Source: a phage. From it: 52,467 nt of DNA. The DNA lies in the sequence record PZ379545.1; one strand, given 5' to 3'. Made by a program: the position numbers and the translations under genes. Positions 1 to 52,467 of this stretch are shown piece after piece; positions within the stretch are counted from its first letter, which is position 1, and each line of letters begins with the position of its first letter. Below the pieces are notes generated by a model. It was given only the letters and a program-made list of their open reading frames with translations. It was not told the origin of the DNA and ran no database searches.

Positions 1-39
<39 letters not shown>

Positions 40-293
40 TTTTTTATTCTTAATTTGTTTCAATATTAATGAGACTAAAATTCGTAACAAAGCTACGAGA
101 CTCGACTTGTTACAATATTATAATTTTTATTTTTGGGTCGGCGGGGAGGGGAAGCCCAACATCCCTATCGGGATAAATACGGTCCCTTAACCAACTTTTT
201 CCAGCCTATCGGCTCAATTCCAAAACCATAGTAGGCGCTACGCTTATGAGTCAAGGTCAAGACAGCACGCTGTAAGAATGTGCTTATCTCTCC

Positions 294-310
294 ATTAGTT
301 GATTGTGAAT
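294..310 (+). promoter_or_regulatory. Candidate phage-type promoter motif (ATTAGTTGATTGTGAAT) upstream of the RNA polymerase gene
   Basis: Variant of a ~20 nt motif recurring in intergenic regions across the window. Confidence 0.35.
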
Positions 311-373
311 TGTGTAATGGCTACGCAAGCCTAATCCGTTTCAGTTAGAACTATACACAATTTGGAGACTATC

Positions 374-2488
374 GTGACTAATGAAGAATATCGTGCACTG
401 GCTGCTGATGGCGCTCGCTTGAAAGAAGAAGGCCACGGTTGGAAAGACGTGCTTGATACAATGGACCGTTGTAACCAGATGGTTGATGAAATCACCTCCG
501 CTACACAATCTGAAACTAAAACCGAAACTAAATTGGAGACTCGCAAAATGACAACTATCACAACTCAAACTATCAAATCCGTTGTTCCTGCTATCACCGC
601 TCTGGTATACCGTGCTAAAGAGAAACAGAATTACATGCAGCCTCAGACCTGTGCTATTGCTGCCCTTGCTATCTTCAAGATGCTGACCTCATTCACTCGT
701 GAAGATGTTGTACCAGCCATCGCTATGGTTGAACTGGCATCTGGTGCTATTGCTGATGCTAACCGTTACAACAACGACCTGAAAGCAATGCACTATGTTG
801 ACCCAGCTATCAACCTGATTGGTCTGGCTAAACACTTCGGTTTCATCACCATGAACGAAGATAAGTCATTCCAGTTGACCGAAGCATGGATTGAGCTGGT
901 CACAACTAAAGAGACTAGCATCCCGTTAACAGAACGTGTCACCACTGAAACTCGTCGTAAGCCTTTCGTTAAAGGTGGCAAGGTTAAGCCATCCAAGACT
1001 CTGAAAGCTGCAATCGAATTCCTGCAAGATACTGAGTATCATGTTGATGCTCAAATGGTTCAAGTTATTCAGTCCATGATTGAACAACGTACCTACGGTG
1101 GTTTGCAGATGCCAGAAGCTATCCAGACTGAACTTCATGTTTGGAACAATGCTGTAGCAATGGCTGGTCAGGATACTCTGTTCTCTGACTACTTTGCTGA
1201 TAACCGTGGTCGTCTGTATCATGTAGCATGTGCTGGTCCTAACCCACAATCATCTGACTTTGCTCGTTGCTTGTATTCTCACAATGTTGAGAACATCGTT
1301 AAGAAGTTTAACGAAGATGGTTCTACAACTCTGGCATACAACATGTTCATGGCTGAGCTGGAAGATATTTCTGGTGGAGACTGGTGTTCTGCTAAACGTT
1401 TAACTTATGTTGCTCAGAATCCTGCTGGTTCACTTGCTCGCATGATGAACATGCCTAAAGCTGAACGTCCTTCCAAGCCATTCACTTATGTTCGTCTGGC
1501 TCTGGATTGGTTCAAGTTTGAGACTACAGGTGAGTGCGATTCTCGTGTAGGCTTTGGCTTAGATGCTAAATGTTCTGGTACTCAATATCTGGCATTCATT
1601 GCAGGTAACATGGAAATGGCTCGTGCTACAGGTCTGGTTGATTCTGAGACTAAAGCATCTGACCCATACCAGTTGAGTCTCCGTGAACTGTTGAAGCTGC
1701 TGGACAAGTCTTCAATGAAACCTTCTGTTGAAATCATGGAAGAGTTCTTGAACCCTAAAGCTGGTCGTAAGTTTATCAAAACTCCATACATGGCTATTCA
1801 GTATGGTGGTGGTAAAGCTGCTTTAACTGGCTCTTCTGACTTTATCTCTTACATGACTGCATCTCTCCAGATTCCAGTTGAGAAAGCAGAAGCATTTGCT
1901 GAACTGTGTGTGGAAGCAATCCATAACGCATTGGGTGCTAAGATTAACATGTTCATTGAGAAAGCTGCTGATGCTGCATATCAACGTTGTGTTGAGCTTA
2001 ACAAGGAATACATCACCTATAAGCACACTGATGGCCAGGTTGTAATGAAGCCTTGCTTCCCATCTCGTGAAATCTGTGATGCATTCAGCATTCGTGTTGA
2101 CTCTCAAACTCGTGTTATCTTTGGTCAGATTCAGGAAGAGAAACCTTGGACCATTCGTGAATCCAATCCAACTAAAGAGGAATTCAAGCGTACTTTCGTA
2201 GTCAACTATATTCAAGGTATTGACGCATTGGTTGCTCGTACTGTTGCTGTTAAAGCTAAAGAAGCTGGTCTTCGTGGTTTCACTTCAATCCACGATTGTT
2301 TCCGTTGCTGCTTAGCTGATGCTCCACGTATGATGGAAGTTATTCGTGCAGCATATGTTGAAATCTTTGTAACCAACAATCAGTTTGAGAACTTGTCTAA
2401 GCAGATTGGTGGCATCAAGATGTATCATGAGAACATCGTAACTGAAGAGCTTCTGATGAGCGAACACGCTTACTACTTCTGTCAATGA
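374..2488 (+). CDS. T7-like single-subunit DNA-dependent RNA polymerase, short N-terminal region
   Basis: Translation carries the ssRNAP catalytic motifs as read against T7 RNAP from memory: DAKCSGTQY (motif A), RKFIKTPYMAIQYGGG (motif B), FTSIHDCF (motif C). GTG start at 374 with GGAG 6 nt upstream; the ORF track starts at TTG 362. Confidence 0.85.
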   Translation: MTNEEYRALAADGARLKEEGHGWKDVLDTMDRCNQMVDEITSATQSETKTETKLETRKMTTITTQTIKSVVPAITALVYRAKEKQNYMQPQTCAIAALAIFKMLTSFTREDVVPAIAMVELASGAIADANRYNNDLKAMHYVDPAINLIGLAKHFGFITMNEDKSFQLTEAWIELVTTKETSIPLTERVTTETRRKPFVKGGKVKPSKTLKAAIEFLQDTEYHVDAQMVQVIQSMIEQRTYGGLQMPEAIQTELHVWNNAVAMAGQDTLFSDYFADNRGRLYHVACAGPNPQSSDFARCLYSHNVENIVKKFNEDGSTTLAYNMFMAELEDISGGDWCSAKRLTYVAQNPAGSLARMMNMPKAERPSKPFTYVRLALDWFKFETTGECDSRVGFGLDAKCSGTQYLAFIAGNMEMARATGLVDSETKASDPYQLSLRELLKLLDKSSMKPSVEIMEEFLNPKAGRKFIKTPYMAIQYGGGKAALTGSSDFISYMTASLQIPVEKAEAFAELCVEAIHNALGAKINMFIEKAADAAYQRCVELNKEYITYKHTDGQVVMKPCFPSREICDAFSIRVDSQTRVIFGQIQEEKPWTIRESNPTKEEFKRTFVVNYIQGIDALVARTVAVKAKEAGLRGFTSIHDCFRCCLADAPRMMEVIRAAYVEIFVTNNQFENLSKQIGGIKMYHENIVTEELLMSEHAYYFCQ

Positions 2489-2529
2489 TATTAATTGGTC
2501 AAGGATGACCACAAACTTGGAGACTTATA

Positions 2530-2730
2530 ATGAATACCATGCAAATCAATCAAATCGAAAACTGTTTCAATCCTCATCACACCTGTGACATGAGTGATTT
2601 ATCTCGTCCTACAGTGGAGGAGACTAAAGACTTCTTAGAATTGTTGGCAGAATATAAACAAGAGTCGCATGTATTATTGCACGCATTCTTGCATAATTCT
2701 GGATACTTTGATACAGAGATACCGTTCTGA
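2530..2730 (+). CDS. Hypothetical small protein
   Basis: 66-aa ORF, ATG preceded by TTGGAGAC RBS-like motif; followed by a terminator hairpin. Confidence 0.55.
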   Translation: MNTMQINQIENCFNPHHTCDMSDLSRPTVEETKDFLELLAEYKQESHVLLHAFLHNSGYFDTEIPF

Positions 2731-2735
2731 TACTT

Positions 2736-2758
2736 GGGAGCTTCGGCTCCCTATTTTT
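2736..2758 (+). terminator. Rho-independent terminator (GGGAGC-UUCG-GCUCCC plus U tract)
   Basis: Perfect 6-bp GC-rich stem, UUCG tetraloop, then TATTTTT. Confidence 0.7.
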
Positions 2759-2806
2759 GTTCTAATTAATCTTAGAGCTGGCTTCAATATTGTAGCCATC
2801 TGTAAC

Positions 2807-2823
2807 ATTAGTTGGATGTGAAG
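2807..2823 (+). promoter_or_regulatory. Candidate phage-type promoter motif (ATTAGTTGGATGTGAAG)
   Basis: Best match to the recurring intergenic motif. Confidence 0.45.
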
Positions 2824-3264
2824 TAAAAGAATACGGAGAAATATTCCGCATGTCATGTTGAATCATTCTAGAAACATTCAGCATGTCAGCTTTGAGTTAC
2901 AGTGTTGTAATGATGTGGCAATCATTGAACTCCCTAGGTAGGCCACCTACAGTTCCAGCAACCATGGCAAAGAGTAGGATTATATACTTCGAAACTTGTA
3001 CTTCACCTATAGCATGTCTATTAGTTTCAATCTTGGTTCGCCACCTAGTAAAGTGCAATCTGGATTCAATCCTAGCTCAGTGCACAAAATAGCGGACAAC
3101 CTGTTACTCCTATTATCAAGGCCCACCCACAAGCCGGGAGATAACTTTTACAAGACTGGAACTTTTGGACATGCTTCTTCTTTTCGAAGTAAATTCGATA
3201 ACAGAGAAGAGTCGGAGCAAAGCCTCTCGTTTTCACGCAGAAGCCGCCCCGAATTTGAGCAACA

Positions 3265-3664
3265 AATATTGTGGCAATATTGCTACAGTATGGCATGTAA
3301 ATATTGCAACAAATCGGCATGTTAGAATGTGGCAGAATTGTTAGAGGACTAATCACCTCGAAGATACAATCGTCTACCAATCCGGCATGTAGATTTCGTT
3401 GCAGTATTTGTGCCAATTTAAGCATGTAATATTGTAACAGGTTCGTGCTAACCCGCATGAATACTGGCTTCCAGCCAAGCGAAGGCTTTATCATCGCATG
3501 TAATATTGTGACAATATTGGGATAAAACCCTTTATTTAATTAGTTTTATTATGCTGTACATGGTCGGTTTTCCGTACCTGCTTGCTCCAATCTTAATGTG
3601 CCAAATACATCAAGTATGGGAGTAAACCTGTAATTAATGATGCATGTTTAATTGTGACAAAATT
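3265..3664. repeat. Array of at least six AATATTG-N3-CAATATT-like palindromes, several preceded by GCATGT
   Basis: Perfect palindromes at 3265-3281 (spacer TGG) and 3502-3518 (spacer TGA); imperfect copies near 3276, 3301, 3428 and 3648; GCATGT at 3293, 3317, 3385, 3422, 3496, 3642. Region has no convincing ORF. Confidence 0.7.
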
Positions 3665-3712
3665 CGTCTATTTGGCAGATGAATTGGTTGCAATTAAGCA
3701 TGTCCATTTATC

Positions 3713-3729
3713 ATTAGTTGCATGTGAAT
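3713..3729 (+). promoter_or_regulatory. Candidate phage-type promoter motif (ATTAGTTGCATGTGAAT) ahead of the early gene block
   Basis: Motif match at the end of the non-coding repeat region. Confidence 0.4.
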
Positions 3730-4000
3730 AAGACCAAATCTCTGTAAATTCTGCTGAAATTGTGTGACAGATTTTAGAGAGATTATGTCTCCAAGCTAAT
3801 CATTGTAGTTTTCGGCACTTGTTGTGTCACATATAGTCTGTGCAAAAGGTGTGGTTTGCAGGAGTGCAAGAGCTTCGCAATACTAGGAAGTAACCGAGAG
3901 CAGCACACACAGAGATGCTATATAACTCCCTACAACTTTAAGGTGGATTGAGGTAAGACAAGACCTCCACAATCGTTCTGTAGGGAGTTTTCTTTTAACT

Positions 4001-4261
4001 TTGGAGAATAAAATGGATACTGTAATTAAAGCTGCTTGTTTTAAAGACCTGCCAGATGGTCAAATCTTCACTGTTCGTTCTGTGAAGTGGATTAAAGTAA
4101 ATGAGTCAGACAAGTACAATGCTGTAAAGTTCTTTGATTCAAGCAAAGCATGTACTTTTAGCGACAATATTGTTGTCAATATTGAAGTCGAATTAATTCC
4201 TGATGACGAAGATGTTGAAGTGACTCTTCGTAACACTGCTGGATATAATGAGGGATTCTAA
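4001..4261 (+). CDS. Hypothetical early protein with acidic C-terminus
   Basis: 86-aa ORF, first gene after the repeat region, GGAG RBS. Confidence 0.6.
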   Translation: MENKMDTVIKAACFKDLPDGQIFTVRSVKWIKVNESDKYNAVKFFDSSKACTFSDNIVVNIEVELIPDDEDVEVTLRNTAGYNEGF

Positions 4262-4504
4262 ATGAATTATGCACTATATCAATACATCAATCGTGATGGT
4301 GTTGTTTCTCATGCTTTGGTTAATACTAAGACCAGAGCAATAATGTTGGCAGACTTAATGACTGGTTCATCAATTTACGAAAACAAACTGGTGTGGAAGA
4401 ATGCCGCATATCCTGAATATGTTTGGCAAGCAATCCAGAACGACAAACATCACAAAGTTGTGGCAACTGCCGCACATCCAGACTTCCTGAAAGTAAGAGG
4501 CTAA
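4262..4504 (+). CDS. Hypothetical early protein
   Basis: 80-aa ORF immediately following the previous stop. Confidence 0.55.
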   Translation: MNYALYQYINRDGVVSHALVNTKTRAIMLADLMTGSSIYENKLVWKNAAYPEYVWQAIQNDKHHKVVATAAHPDFLKVRG

Positions 4505-25303: not shown

Positions 25304-25633
25304 ATGAAACTGTCCTCTCCTGTTGTAACAAATAACCGTAAAGTTAAATTTGCTTATTTGAAATCTACTGTCACCTCAACTGGTGGCGGTACTTATCTCA
25401 CTCGTGCCCTTGCAACCCGCAATGCCACTGGTGCAGATGTAATTGTTTTCATGCTTCCTCGTGGTGAAAACACAATCAAGAACGTCGAACGTATTAAGCG
25501 TGGGCGCGAAGATTTAATGTCGGCTGTGAAGCCGCTAATTCTACCATTTAAGATTGTGGTAGTGGTTGGGTCAACCCAAGCGTATCTCGAAGATTTCTAC
25601 AAAGATATGAATTGGAGTGATATTAAATATTAG
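25304..25633 (+). CDS. Hypothetical protein, possible small terminase subunit by position
   Basis: 109-aa ORF just upstream of the large terminase; no motif recognised. Confidence 0.5.
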   Translation: MKLSSPVVTNNRKVKFAYLKSTVTSTGGGTYLTRALATRNATGADVIVFMLPRGENTIKNVERIKRGREDLMSAVKPLILPFKIVVVVGSTQAYLEDFYKDMNWSDIKY

Positions 25634-25686
25634 TGTCCACTTATGTCGAGGGTCTATCCGGCCCTCTATCTAATTGGAATTACACT

Positions 25687-25872
25687 ATGCAAACAATATC
25701 ATGCCCACAATGCGGTCACTCAATAGCAGAGGACGACTTCATTACTCAACAGTGTCCGGTATGCGACAGCTATATGCGGTTGTCGCGTCTTGACACCAAG
25801 GCTCACCCAGACCTTGGGAAAATCATTCGCATCAATCCTGTGCAAACTTCAACATTAGTAGAACGGGATTAA
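25687..25872 (+). CDS. Small zinc-ribbon protein
   Basis: CPQCG ... CPVCD double CxxC; ATG 25687, or GTG 25633 if longer. Confidence 0.45.
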   Translation: MQTISCPQCGHSIAEDDFITQQCPVCDSYMRLSRLDTKAHPDLGKIIRINPVQTSTLVERD

Positions 25873-52159: not shown

Positions 52160-52276
52160 TTGGATACGGTGAAGGCTGACGTTTGTCAGTTATTATGCGA
52201 GAAGAGATTCGATGCGTTAGCGTCGTTTCTCTTTAAGCTAGAATAAAATAAGTAAGTTAAAATATTACTTATTCCC

Positions 52277-52293
52277 AATATTGCTACAATATC
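52277..52293. repeat. Isolated copy of the AATATTG-N3-CAATAT palindrome near the right end
   Basis: AATATTGCTACAATATC; nearly identical to AATATTGCTACAGTAT at 3276-3291. Confidence 0.6.
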
Positions 52294-52339
52294 AAGAGTA
52301 ATATTAGGAATGCGTAAAGTTCAAACCAAAATGGTACAT

Positions 52340-52395
52340 GGTCGGCCAACTGTACTTGGACCAATCTTCGTTCACGGTCGGTCGACTGTATCTAG
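52340..52395. repeat. Two direct 20-nt repeats (GGTCGGCCAACTGTACTTGG / GGTCGGTCGACTGTATCTAG) near the right terminus
   Basis: 15 of 20 positions identical, 36 nt apart; a GGTCGG core also occurs at 138-143. Confidence 0.5.

Positions 52396-52433: not shown

Positions 52434-52467
<34 letters not shown>

What the first reader, a model, noticed from the sequence alone, without database searches (positions are those of the whole stretch)
3265..3664. Non-coding 1.2 kb region with an array of AATATTG-N3-CAATATT palindromes, plus a copy at the right end
Between the RNA polymerase operon terminator and the first early gene there is no credible ORF. Instead there are at least six copies of a 17-bp inverted repeat, two of them perfect, several preceded by GCATGT. 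A near-identical site sits at 52277-52293. A perfect palindrome with a 3-bp spacer in multiple copies is typical of operators for a dimeric DNA-binding protein or of replication-origin iterons. Its presence on both sides of the poly(T) junction suggests the sites flank the genome ends.
Basis: seen in the sequence. Interest (0 to 1): 0.65.

Follow-up and report, generated by a model that had tools for sequence, protein, structure and literature searches.

The report
Repeat array beside phage terminal repeat
The palindromes are real and belong to a conserved, never-annotated array of protein-binding-type repeats that sits a fixed ~50 bases outside both edges of this phage's 3-kb terminal repeat, so it most likely helps to define or process the genome ends, although a role in early transcription control is not excluded.

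Summary
The window is a Chaseviridae (phiEcoM-GJ1/Mangalitsa-like) coliphage. The motif is real. AATATTG-N3-CAATATT occurs perfectly at 3265 and 3502 and with one mismatch at 52277, against about 0 expected. Only these are true palindromes. The real unit is a directional 23-mer, GCATGT+AATATTGTGACAATATT, with 11 GCATGT on the + strand in the 1.25-kb gene-free gap (P=2e-11). The array is syntenic in six genera. More distant relatives carry arrays of other short motifs in the same gap. By homology with seven genomes whose ends are annotated or present in the record, and with the start of the Faunus record, the terminal repeat is about window 170-3213, so the poly(T) junction is not a genome end. 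The first palindrome lies 49-51 nt outside the right repeat boundary in 9 of 10 genomes (60 in PM1), although most of that spacer is not conserved in sequence. A related box lies about 50 nt outside the left boundary, and a second shared element (ATGGTCGG...) follows a palindrome on both flanks. My best reading (0.38) is binding sites that position terminal-repeat cutting or duplication and packaging. The rivals are an early promoter/operator cluster, T7-type origins and a T5-like injection-stop region. No function has been tested, and no paper found describes the array.

The parts
3265..3292 (+). First box cluster outside the terminal repeat: AATATTGTGGCAATATTGCTACAGTATG. It holds three CAATATTG-like boxes 11 bp apart, and the first 17 bp form a perfect AATATTG-N3-CAATATT match.
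   Evidence: It is conserved in 10 phages of 6 genera. It starts 49-51 nt after the repeat boundary in 9 of 10 genomes.
3293..3339 (+). Two tandem GCATGT units with 24-nt spacing: GCATGTAAATATTGCAACAAATCG and GCATGTTAGAATGTGGCAGAATT.
   Evidence: families D1, D6. A PWM built from other genera scores them 23.0 and 25.2 bits. Orthologous units are present in all genera.
3340..3367 (+). Conserved non-repeat block GTTAGAGGACTAATCACCTCGAAGATAC.
   Evidence: Nearly invariant in Escherichia, Yersinia and Erwinia phages, and recognisable in PM1 and Myduc. It lies within the stretch that blastn finds at ~68% identity in Erwinia and Pantoea phages.
3385..3444 (+). GCATGT units at 3385 and 3422 (GCATGTAGATTTCGTTGCAGTAT and GCATGTAATATTGTAACAGGTTC).
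   Evidence: 19.6 and 23.2 bits.
3496..3518 (+). Best-conserved unit, GCATGTAATATTGTGACAATATT. It contains the perfect 17-bp palindrome at 3502-3518 and is followed by GGGA and an AT-rich stretch.
   Evidence: 23.9 bits. It is identical in Mangalitsa, GJ1, SA91KD and 4HA13, and the core is kept in Faunus, Y2 and Myduc.
3556..3577 (+). GTACATGGTCGGTTTTCCGTAC, the right-flank copy of the ATGGTCGG element. It lies about 40 nt downstream of the palindrome.
   Evidence: Conserved in all 10 aligned phages. Counterparts lie at 52336-52357 and 52374-52390. GGTCG-N3-CGACC versions occur in Vibrio phage VPs20.
3642..3664 (+). Last full unit, GCATGTTTAATTGTGACAAAATT.
   Evidence: (19.7 bits).
2848..3017 (+). 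Units inside the terminal repeat: GCATGTC at 2848, 2881 and 3012, and the box TGTAATGATGTGGCAATCATTG at 2906-2927.
3207..3220 (.). Inferred right boundary of the direct terminal repeat (AAGAGTC|GGAGCAA, about 3213|3214, within 5 nt).
   Evidence: Inferred by homology with exact repeats in the Y2, PM1 and JL1 records, with the terminal-repeat annotations of the Mangalitsa, 4HA13 and Myduc records (attributed there to PhageTerm), and with the start of the Faunus record. Not measured for this phage.
160..180 (.). Inferred left boundary of the direct terminal repeat (CCCTATC|GGGATAAATACGG, about 169|170, within 5 nt).
   Evidence: A TCGG/CGGAC motif is shared with the right boundary.
61..124 (+). 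Left-flank array: CAATATT box (61-67), GAGACT-prefixed units (71-, 97-) and the last box TTGTTACAATATT+TATAAT (107-124). The last box ends about 50 nt before the left boundary.
   Evidence: Mangalitsa has four such units.
52276..52390 (+). Right-genome-end module: CAATATTGCTACAATATC palindrome (52276-52293), then ACATGGTCGGCCAACTGTAC (52336-) and ACGGTCGGTCGACTGTA (52374-52390).
   Evidence: Both parts are conserved in six genera.
2803..2822 (+). 'Putative phage promoter 1' of the GJ1 record (TAACATTAGTTGGATGTGAA), upstream of the array.
   Evidence: (D7).
3709..3728 (+). 'Putative phage promoter 2' (TATCATTAGTTGCATGTGAA), downstream of the array.

Best explanation
The palindromes are the core of a family-conserved array of duplex-DNA binding sites. 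These are CAATATTG boxes about one helical turn apart, most of them carrying a 5' GCATGT hexamer. The array fills the untranslated DNA just outside the right edge of the ~3-kb direct terminal repeat, which carries the RNA polymerase gene. A smaller counterpart lies just outside the left edge.

I propose that a phage protein binds these boxes as dimers or multimers. A small-terminase-like subunit or another end-processing factor is the obvious candidate. Binding on both flanks of the single repeat copy in a concatemer would fix the position of the two cuts or nicks at the shared TCGG/CGGAC motif about 50 bp away. The repeat could then be duplicated by inward strand-displacement synthesis and the genome packaged.

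Shown here: the motif, its enrichment, its conservation, its position relative to the ends, and the constant spacing. Inferred: that a protein binds, which protein it is, and the cutting and duplication steps.
For: 1. The array is localized, not dispersed. A PWM built only from other genera gives 11 hits of 12 bits or more, all on the + strand at 2667-3720, and one hit elsewhere.
2. The repeat boundaries of seven genomes (Y2, PM1, JL1, Mangalitsa, 4HA13, Myduc, plus the start of the Faunus record) map to the same two homologous sites. Both sites carry TCGG/CGGAC.
3. The distance from the right boundary to the first palindrome is 51, 51, 51, 50, 51, 50, 49 and 49 nt in eight genomes. In Myduc a different palindrome (AATATGTTACATATT) sits at 50 nt. 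In PM1 the distance is 60 nt, about one extra helical turn. Across four genus representatives, the 27-nt stretch compared within this spacer is only 3-9/27 identical in five of six pairs (14/27 for 4HA13 against Y2); the box-proximal ~20 nt is conserved.
4. The last left-flank box ends 46-51 nt before the left boundary in the window, Mangalitsa, 4HA13 and JL1.
5. The two-part module (palindrome, then ATGGTCGG...GTAC about 40 nt later) occurs on both flanks in six genera.
6. In the distant Aeromonas phage ZPAH14 (exact 3373-bp repeat) the array uses another motif (GTATGAGAC). TATGA(C/T)AC units lie 47 nt before and 45 nt after the boundaries. Shewanella phage Spp001 has GTGTC-N3-GACAC palindromes on both sides of its RNA polymerase gene.
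7. Precedents, from my own knowledge: lambda cosB sites begin about 50 bp from cosN; P1 pac has hexamer arrays on both sides of the cut; T7 has short-repeat arrays next to its terminal repeat. The T5 1.2-kb untranslated repeat region straddling the repeat edge is described in bioRxiv 10.1101/866236.
Against: No binding protein is identified. The two ORFs upstream of the large terminase (25304-25633 and 25633-25872) match only families of unknown function, plus sub-threshold zinc-ribbon hits.

The ends of this particular phage were not measured. They are transferred by homology.

The experimentally derived PYps23T repeat (2339 bp) ends elsewhere, inside the ATTAGTTGGA promoter-like motif on both sides.

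All units on both flanks point the same way as transcription, and each array is followed by a promoter-like site and an operon. That arrangement is what a transcription element would also show.

The boxes lie outside the DNA end that each cut creates, which is the opposite of lambda cosB. GCATGT units also occur inside the repeat and up to 500 nt from the boundary, and a cut-positioning role alone does not explain that. The left-flank spacer is conserved in sequence, so its constant length is weak evidence.
Confidence: 0.38

Rival explanations
1. The arrays form an early transcription control region. The units would be promoters read by the phage's divergent single-subunit RNA polymerase or by a modified host polymerase, or operators for a dimeric regulator. 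They would sit upstream of the two transcription units that must fire first: the RNA polymerase operon (left-flank boxes) and the early-gene block (right-flank array).
For: All units are co-oriented with the genes. Each array is followed by a GJ1-type putative phage promoter and then genes, at 287-306 before the polymerase gene and at 3709-3728 before 4013. The best unit, AATATTGTGACAATATT|GGGA, matches the SP6 promoter ATTTAGGTGACACTATAG at 12 of 18 positions with the same GTGACA placement (my own comparison against a remembered sequence). After GCATGT, the two most informative positions are the A at +2 and the T at +6, as in an extended -10 element. The last left-flank box abuts a perfect TATAAT. 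The ICTV profile states that Chaseviridae promoters are not identified (PMC12842549).
Against: The motif is confined to one locus, whereas the ATTAGTTGGATGTGAA motif is the one dispersed behind terminators. The consensus scan found no sigma-70-type promoter at any unit on the + strand. The invariant part is GCATGT, not the would-be -10. GJ1 and SA91KD have TGGAAT where others have TAGAAT, and orthologous would-be -10 hexamers often lose A2 or T6. The motif changes with phage lineage, which argues against a universal sigma-70 target. The polymerase is too far from T7 to infer promoter specificity (PDB phmmer E=0.004; Pfam RNA_pol 2e-19). No regulator was found among the ten proteins scanned. 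This reading does not explain the constant 50-nt distance to the repeat boundary.
Confidence: 0.28
2. The two modules flanking the repeat are T7-style replication origins, comparable to the primary origin or to phiOL/phiOR. A promoter-like unit would fire rightwards through an AT-rich stretch. The displaced strand would expose a TGGTC primase site that primes leftward synthesis. Forks from these origins could also duplicate the terminal repeat.
For: The expected order of elements is present on both flanks: a unit or palindrome (3496-3518; 52276-52293), then about 35-40 nt of fairly AT-rich DNA, then ATGGTCGG containing TGGTC, a T7 primase recognition sequence (my own knowledge). The phage encodes a fused helicase/primase and a DNA polymerase but no annotated initiator. 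The ATGGTCG element is the most deeply conserved part, reaching VPs20 and Spp001. Putative phage promoter 1 fires into DNA that contains no gene.
Against: The primase specificity of this family is unknown. The AT-rich stretch at 3523-3552 is not among the most AT-rich 40-mers of the genome. Cumulative GC skew is uninformative because all genes share one strand. Unit spacings of 24, 68, 37, 33, 41 and 146 nt are not iteron-like. DnaA boxes are not enriched (5 found against 8.1 expected).
Confidence: 0.16
3. The region is a T5-like injection-stop or two-step-entry signal. The terminal repeat with the polymerase gene would enter first and entry would pause at the repeat-rich untranslated DNA. The newly made phage polymerase, starting at promoter 1, would then pull in the rest of the genome.
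For: The architecture resembles T5 Repeat Region 3, which is 1.2 kb, untranslated, full of palindromes and direct repeats, better conserved than neighbouring ORFs, lies mostly in the left repeat and overruns into unique DNA by 270 bp (10.1101/866236). Here the gap is 1.25 kb and straddles the boundary (about 450 nt inside, 800 nt outside). The repeat carries only the polymerase gene and one small ORF. A phage-type promoter faces the gene-free DNA.
Against: There is no evidence of two-step injection in any Chaseviridae. It is unknown which end enters first. No DnaA-box pattern like that of T5 is present. The reading does not explain the counterpart array on the other flank.
Confidence: 0.08

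Closest known systems
Terminase recognition arrays next to a cut site (lambda cosB R3-R2-R1; P1 pac hexamer clusters)
   Same: Several copies of a short motif lie next to a defined cleavage site. Motif clusters lie on both sides of the processed region, as in P1 pac. The spacing is conserved while most of the spacer sequence is not.
   Different: The two clusters are separated by a 3-kb repeat, not about 100 bp. The boxes lie outside the DNA end that each cut creates. No small terminase has been identified. The motif sequence is unrelated. Binding has not been tested.
T7/T3 short-repeat arrays (SRL/SRR) and the phiOL/phiOR promoters flanking the terminal repeat
   Same: This is also a phage with a single-subunit RNA polymerase, one-directional genes and an exact terminal repeat. 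Arrays of short repeats and promoter-like or origin-like elements sit just inside the unique DNA on both sides of the repeat (my own knowledge of Dunn and Studier 1983; the positions here come).
   Different: The repeat is 3 kb and contains the polymerase gene, against 160 bp without genes in T7. The units are 23-mers with an internal palindrome, not 7-mers. The function of the T7 arrays is itself not established.
T5 Repeat Region 3 / injection stop signal
   Same: Both are ~1.2-kb untranslated stretches rich in palindromes and direct repeats that straddle the inner edge of the left terminal repeat. Both are conserved across the family more than neighbouring ORFs (10.1101/866236; here).
   Different: There are no paired DnaA boxes. 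A second, smaller array exists on the other flank. Two-step injection is not known for this family.
GJ1-type 'putative phage promoters' (NNACATTAGTTGGATGTGAA)
   Same: They occur in the same genomes and on the same strand, and they bracket the array at 2803-2822 and 3709-3728. Promoter 2 contains GCATGT.
   Different: That motif is dispersed behind terminators across the genome, whereas the GCATGT/palindrome units are confined to the repeat flanks. The sequences align only at CAT and TGTGA.
Operator arrays of dimeric phage repressors (17-bp sites such as lambda OR/OL)
   Same: There is a perfect 17-bp palindrome, with several neighbouring sites of graded match, upstream of early operons.
   Different: This is a strictly lytic phage with no recognizable repressor. 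Most copies keep one arm only, and an invariant asymmetric hexamer (GCATGT) accompanies them.

Membership tests
Terminase (pac/cosB-type) recognition array | Repeated motif adjacent to the physical genome terminus or cut site | tested here: met
   The first box lies 49-51 nt from the right repeat boundary in 9 of 10 genomes. The last left-flank box lies 46-51 nt from the left boundary. Boundaries come from seven genomes plus the Faunus record start. The termini of this phage are inferred by homology only.
Terminase (pac/cosB-type) recognition array | Bound by the small terminase subunit and required for cutting and packaging | not testable with these tools
   No small terminase is recognizable. 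The ORFs upstream of TerL give only unknown-function PHROG matches and sub-threshold zinc-ribbon hits.
T7-like phage RNA polymerase promoter | About 20 bp of conserved sequence dispersed upstream of gene clusters across the genome | tested here: not met
   PWM hits are confined to 2667-3720 with one exception. The dispersed motif is ATTAGTTGGATGTGAA.
T7-like phage RNA polymerase promoter | Recognition by the cognate polymerase, with a start at a fixed position | not testable with these tools
   The polymerase is too divergent to read promoter specificity from homology.
Sigma-70 promoter cluster (T7 A1-A3 type) | -35 and -10 hexamers 16-18 bp apart, or TGn plus a conserved -10 with A at position 2 and T at position 6 | tested here: not met
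   No + strand consensus site was found at any unit. Orthologous would-be -10 hexamers are not conserved, for example TGGAAT in GJ1 and SA91KD. The motif differs between phage lineages.
Iteron-type or T7-type replication origin | Repeats or a promoter next to an AT-rich unwinding region and a priming site | tested here: inconclusive
   The order unit, then AT-rich stretch, then TGGTC exists on both flanks. The AT-rich stretch is modest, unit spacing is irregular, and no initiator or primase specificity is known.
T5-type injection stop region | Large untranslated repeat-rich region at the inner edge of the left terminal repeat | tested here: met
   The 1.25-kb gene-free region at 2760-4012 straddles the inferred boundary at about 3213. 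Compare 10.1101/866236.
T5-type injection stop region | Conserved paired DnaA boxes, and two-step DNA transfer | tested here: not met
   TTWTNCACA occurs 5 times against 8.1 expected, and none lies in 3250-3700. Two-step transfer cannot be tested here.
N4-type hairpin promoter | Stable 5-7 bp stem with a 3-nt loop, extruded and read as single-stranded DNA | tested here: inconclusive
   The geometry fits (7-bp stem, 3-nt loop), but stability is low at -2 to -3 kcal/mol. Most units lack the second arm.
Structured non-coding RNA | Match to a known family, or covariation-supported structure | tested here: not met
   No Rfam hit up to E=5 in 1-4300. Conservation is at the sequence level, in invariant hexamers. 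One small hairpin near 3473-3487 shows compensatory stems by eye, but no formal test was run.

The most novel reading that the evidence does not exclude
Chaseviridae may define their exact 3-kb terminal repeats with two mirror-positioned protein-binding arrays about 50 bp outside each repeat boundary. These arrays would direct nicks at a shared TCGG/CGGAC motif and inward strand-displacement copying of the repeat. This would be a concrete, testable mechanism for how long exact terminal repeats are made. The same GCATGT/palindrome units might also be the family's missing early promoters, coupling transcription to end processing as proposed for T7.
Probability: 0.2. Interest if true: 0.78.

Novelty: new variant of a known kind. 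Interest (0 to 1): 0.55.

Why it matters
Two questions are open for this family. The ICTV profile states that its promoter sequences have not been identified (PMC12842549). To my knowledge, it is also unsettled how phages generate long, exact terminal repeats. This array is the most conserved non-coding feature of the family. It sits at a fixed distance from both repeat boundaries and has lineage-specific equivalents in distant members. That gives defined sequences to mutate, footprint and test for packaging, replication and transcription. It also gives a practical marker for placing genome ends in new Chaseviridae assemblies, many of which are deposited opened at arbitrary points. This window, for example, is opened in a poly(T) run.

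Tried and rejected
- **Coding potential.** ORFs in 2760-4000 are not conserved in relatives. Rejected.
- **Known RNAs.** Rfam at E up to 5 and ARAGORN found nothing.
- **Sigma-70 promoters.** The consensus scan found none at the units. Hand checks of -35/-10 and extended -10 readings fail on conservation.
- **Sigma-54 reading of TGGCAT-N-TTGCA.** The spacing is 2 nt too long (by eye).
- **DnaA boxes, as in the T5 region.** Not enriched.
- **Host transcription-factor sites (CRP, Fur, CytR, FadR, LacI-type).** Recalled from memory, only partial resemblances. Not pursued.
- **Inferring promoter specificity from the polymerase specificity loop.** The polymerase barely aligns with T7, so the SP6-like look of the best unit stays a lead.
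- **A DNA-binding regulator.** The scan of the 66-aa ORF and nine early ORFs gave only unknown families. The 66-aa ORF after the polymerase gene is not annotated in Y2 and PM1, which still have the array, so it is unlikely to be the binder.
- **Genome-wide approximate-repeat search.** My script timed out. It was replaced by k-mer counts.
- **Covariation between the array motif and the dispersed motif across lineages.** Cleopatravirinae have GCATGT against GGATGT. ZPAH14 has GTATGAGAC against TATGGTAAC. This is suggestive at best.
- **Hairpin or cruciform stability.** Weak.
- **AT-richness and GC skew as origin markers.** Uninformative.
- **Exact 18-mer scan of viral contigs.** It returned five contigs whose lengths equal those of isolate genomes seen earlier, one metagenomic relative (L026) and one apparent chance hit in a 379-kb contig.
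- **Literature.** Two full-text searches for Chaseviridae, phiEcoM-GJ1 and the genus names, one for polymerase-promoter terms and one for the motif strings found no description of the array. The GJ1 and Y2 genome papers are not held.
Full report
**What the window is.** The 2-kb stretch around the finding matches 78 phage records. The best matches are Escherichia and Yersinia myoviruses of the family Chaseviridae: FXie-2024a at 92%, and Mangalitsa, PYps23T, MLP1, GJ1 and ST32 at lower identity. [quoted passage not shown] The large ORF at 362/374-2488 is the family's single-subunit RNA polymerase (Pfam RNA_pol, E=2e-19). It is very distant from T7: phmmer against the PDB gives only E=0.004 over the catalytic motifs. 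A 66-aa ORF follows at 2530-2730, then a terminator at 2736-2751. The next gene starts at 4013.

**Is the region non-coding?** Yes. No ORF of 45 aa or more in 2760-4000 is conserved in relatives. GJ1 has none, and the 140-aa minus-strand ORF is unique to this window. Rfam and ARAGORN find nothing.

**Checking the observation.**
- AATATTG-N3-CAATATT is perfect at 3265 and 3502 and has one mismatch at 52277. Shuffles give 0.00 and 0.01 expected.
- CAATATTG occurs 7 times against 1.34 expected. Six copies lie at 2785-4184 or at 52276.
- The other 'copies' at 3300, 3392, 3428 and 3648 have four mismatches and keep only one arm. 'At least six inverted repeats' is therefore an overstatement.
- The real repeat is a directional 23-mer, GCATGTAATATTGTGACAATATT.
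- 11 of the 28 + strand GCATGT lie in the 1.25-kb gap (P=2e-11).
- A weight matrix built only from units of other genera finds 11 sites of 12 bits or more in the window. All are on the + strand between 2667 and 3720, and only one further site lies elsewhere.
- The 3502 site is a perfect 17-bp palindrome with 8-bp arms. At 3265-3292 three CAATATTG-like boxes follow each other at 11-bp intervals.
- As single strands the hairpins are weak, at -2 to -3 kcal/mol. Recognition as duplex DNA is more likely.

**Conservation.** An alignment of ten phages from six genera shows the whole gap to be syntenic. The genera are Carltongylesvirus, Sabourvirus, Faunusvirus, Loessnervirus, Suwonvirus and Myducvirus. 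Every orthologous unit keeps an invariant GCATGT, and TGTGACA cores are conserved. Further conserved blocks are GTTAGAGGACTAATCACCTCGAAGATAC, ATGGTCGGTTTTCCGTAC, TGTGCCAAATAC and ATTTGGC. Part of this DNA (window about 3314-3610) is still found by blastn at 68% identity in Erwinia and Pantoea phages.

More distant members also have a 1.0-1.3-kb gene-free gap after the polymerase gene. These are Aeromonas phage ZPAH14, Vibrio phage VPs20 and Shewanella phage Spp001, whose polymerases are about 33% identical to this one. Their gaps are filled with + strand arrays of other short motifs (GTATGAGAC, GTATGA, GTGTGAC) and other palindromes with 3-nt spacers (GTCTC... replaced here by GTGTC-N3-GACAC and GGTCG-N3-CGACC). 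The architecture is family-wide, and the sequence is lineage-specific.

**Relation to the genome ends.**
- The family has direct terminal repeats of about 3 kb (PMC12842549).
- The Mangalitsa, 4HA13 and Myduc records annotate repeats of 3234, 3120 and 3202 bp, attributed to PhageTerm (PMC6753284; PMC9699118).
- The Y2, PM1 and JL1 records contain both copies as exact repeats of 2608, 2665 and 2995 bp.
- The Faunus record starts at the same homologous point.
- All of these map to two sites in the window. The left boundary is CCCTATC|GGGATAAATACGG at about 169|170. The right boundary is AAGAGTC|GGAGCAA at about 3213|3214. Both carry TCGG/CGGAC.
- The poly(T) run at the window's ends is therefore only where the assembly was opened.
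- PYps23T is discordant. Its 2339-bp repeat, found by ligation-PCR, ends inside ATTAGTTGGA on both sides. That pattern could arise from an artefact at a repeated sequence, but I cannot show this.

**The key measurement.**
- The distance from the right boundary to the first palindrome is 51, 51, 51, 50, 51, 50, 49 and 49 nt in eight genomes. It is 60 nt in PM1. In Myduc a different palindrome (AATATGTTACATATT) sits at 50 nt.
- A 27-nt stretch of this spacer is essentially unconserved between four genus representatives. Five of six pairs share 3-9 of 27 positions, and 4HA13 against Y2 shares 14 of 27. The box-proximal ~20 nt (CCCGAATTTGAGCAACA) is conserved.
- On the other flank the last box (TTGTTACAATATT, 107-119) ends about 50 nt before the left boundary. 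The figure is 46-51 nt in four genomes.
- A two-part module occurs on both flanks in all six genera: a palindrome, then ATGGTCGG...GTAC about 40 nt later.
- In ZPAH14, which has a different motif and an exact 3373-bp repeat, TATGA(C/T)AC units lie 47 nt before and 45 nt after the boundaries.

**What is already annotated.** The GJ1 GenBank record marks 'putative phage promoters' of the form NNACATTAGTTGGATGTGAA. The SA91KD record marks about ten of these behind terminators. In the window they lie at 2803-2822 and 3709-3728, bracketing the array, and at 287-306, 7243, 11151 and 13144 among others. Nobody annotates the GCATGT/palindrome array. Two full-text searches for the family, genus and phage names, one for polymerase-promoter terms and one for the motif strings found no description of it.

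**Interpretation.** Four facts point to a role in generating or handling the genome ends. The spacing to the terminus is constant although most of the spacer sequence varies. Counterparts lie at similar distances outside both repeat boundaries. The array is strictly local. Distant relatives keep the same geometry with a different motif.

I therefore favour binding sites that position the cuts or nicks and the duplication of the single repeat copy in concatemers. The comparison is with lambda cosB, P1 pac and the T7 short-repeat arrays. My confidence is 0.38. Binding, the binder and the cutting steps are all inferred.

**Rivals.**
- **Early promoter/operator cluster (0.28).** For: the units share the orientation of the genes, each array is followed by a promoter-like site and an operon, one unit looks SP6-like, and a TATAAT abuts the last left-flank box. 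Against: the motif is local, it lacks a sigma-70 consensus, the would-be -10 positions are not conserved, and the motif changes with phage lineage.
- **T7-type origins (0.16).** For: the order unit, then AT-rich stretch, then TGGTC, and the deep conservation of ATGGTCG. No direct evidence exists.
- **T5-like injection-stop region (0.08).** For: a strikingly similar layout to T5 Repeat Region 3 (10.1101/866236). Against: no DnaA boxes and no known two-step entry.

These roles are not mutually exclusive. In T7, transcription, origin function and repeat processing are linked (my own knowledge).

**Verdict.** The feature is real, strongly non-random and conserved across the family. No description of it turned up in the searches made. 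Function remains untested. I rate it a new variant of known end-associated repeat arrays, with interest 0.55.

Noticed in passing
window 52436-52467 and 1-31: There is a run of about 63 T across the artificial junction. Mangalitsa has only T10 and T9 around a TATAA at the homologous place, and Y2, PM1 and Myduc also have short runs. The run is either a homopolymer expansion or an assembly artefact. The window was evidently opened there.
   Followed up: partly
window 160-180 and 3207-3220: Both inferred terminal-repeat boundaries carry the same short motif, TCGG or CGGAC. In JL1, CGGAC is shared at both junctions. This is a candidate cut or nick site.
   Followed up: partly
window 287-306, 2803-2822, 3709-3728, 7243, 11151, 13144 and others: The GJ1-type motif (A)ACATTAGTTGGATGTGAA is dispersed on the + strand, usually behind terminators. 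One copy lies in the leader of the polymerase gene in all genera. ATTAGTTG occurs 14 times. It remains the best candidate for the family's phage-polymerase promoter, which the ICTV profile calls unidentified.
   Followed up: partly
L002/L003 (Yersinia phage PYps23T): The published 2339-bp terminal repeat begins and ends at the same position inside two copies of ATTAGTTGGA|. This disagrees with seven other genomes and may be a template-switch or recombination artefact.
   Followed up: partly
window 4148-4184: Inside the first early gene there is a GCATGT followed by two perfect CAATATTG boxes 12 nt apart. The element is conserved in Mangalitsa, GJ1 and PYps23T.
   Followed up: no
window ~3461-3487: A small hairpin (AGCC-AAGCGAA-GGCT) lies just upstream of the best unit. 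Its stems differ but still pair in Faunus (GCTG/CAGC), Y2 (GCTAAC/GTTAGC) and PM1 (TGCTG/CAGCA). No formal covariation test was run.
   Followed up: no
L017/L020 (ZPAH14) 2767, 2797, 3510, 4722, 9193; L019 (Spp001) 5393, 5422, 5451: The distant subfamily has a recurring hairpin motif, GGCTC-TNC-GAGCC followed by AAAAG. It occurs in the gap after the polymerase gene and in other intergenic regions. ZPAH14 also has TATGGTAAC behind terminator-like hairpins. These are possible promoter or processing signals.
   Followed up: no
window 135-165 and homologues: A T-run followed by a G-rich block (GGGGAGGGG) precedes the left repeat boundary in every lineage examined, including ZPAH14 and Spp001.
   Followed up: no
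window 25633-25872: The small ORF immediately upstream of the large terminase gene has sub-threshold zinc-ribbon matches and otherwise only unknown-function PHROG matches. It is a candidate DNA-binding packaging subunit.
   Followed up: partly
L031 6630-6647: An exact 18-mer match of GCATGTAATATTGTGACA occurs in a 379-kb viral contig. It has no array around it and appears to be a chance hit.
   Followed up: yes
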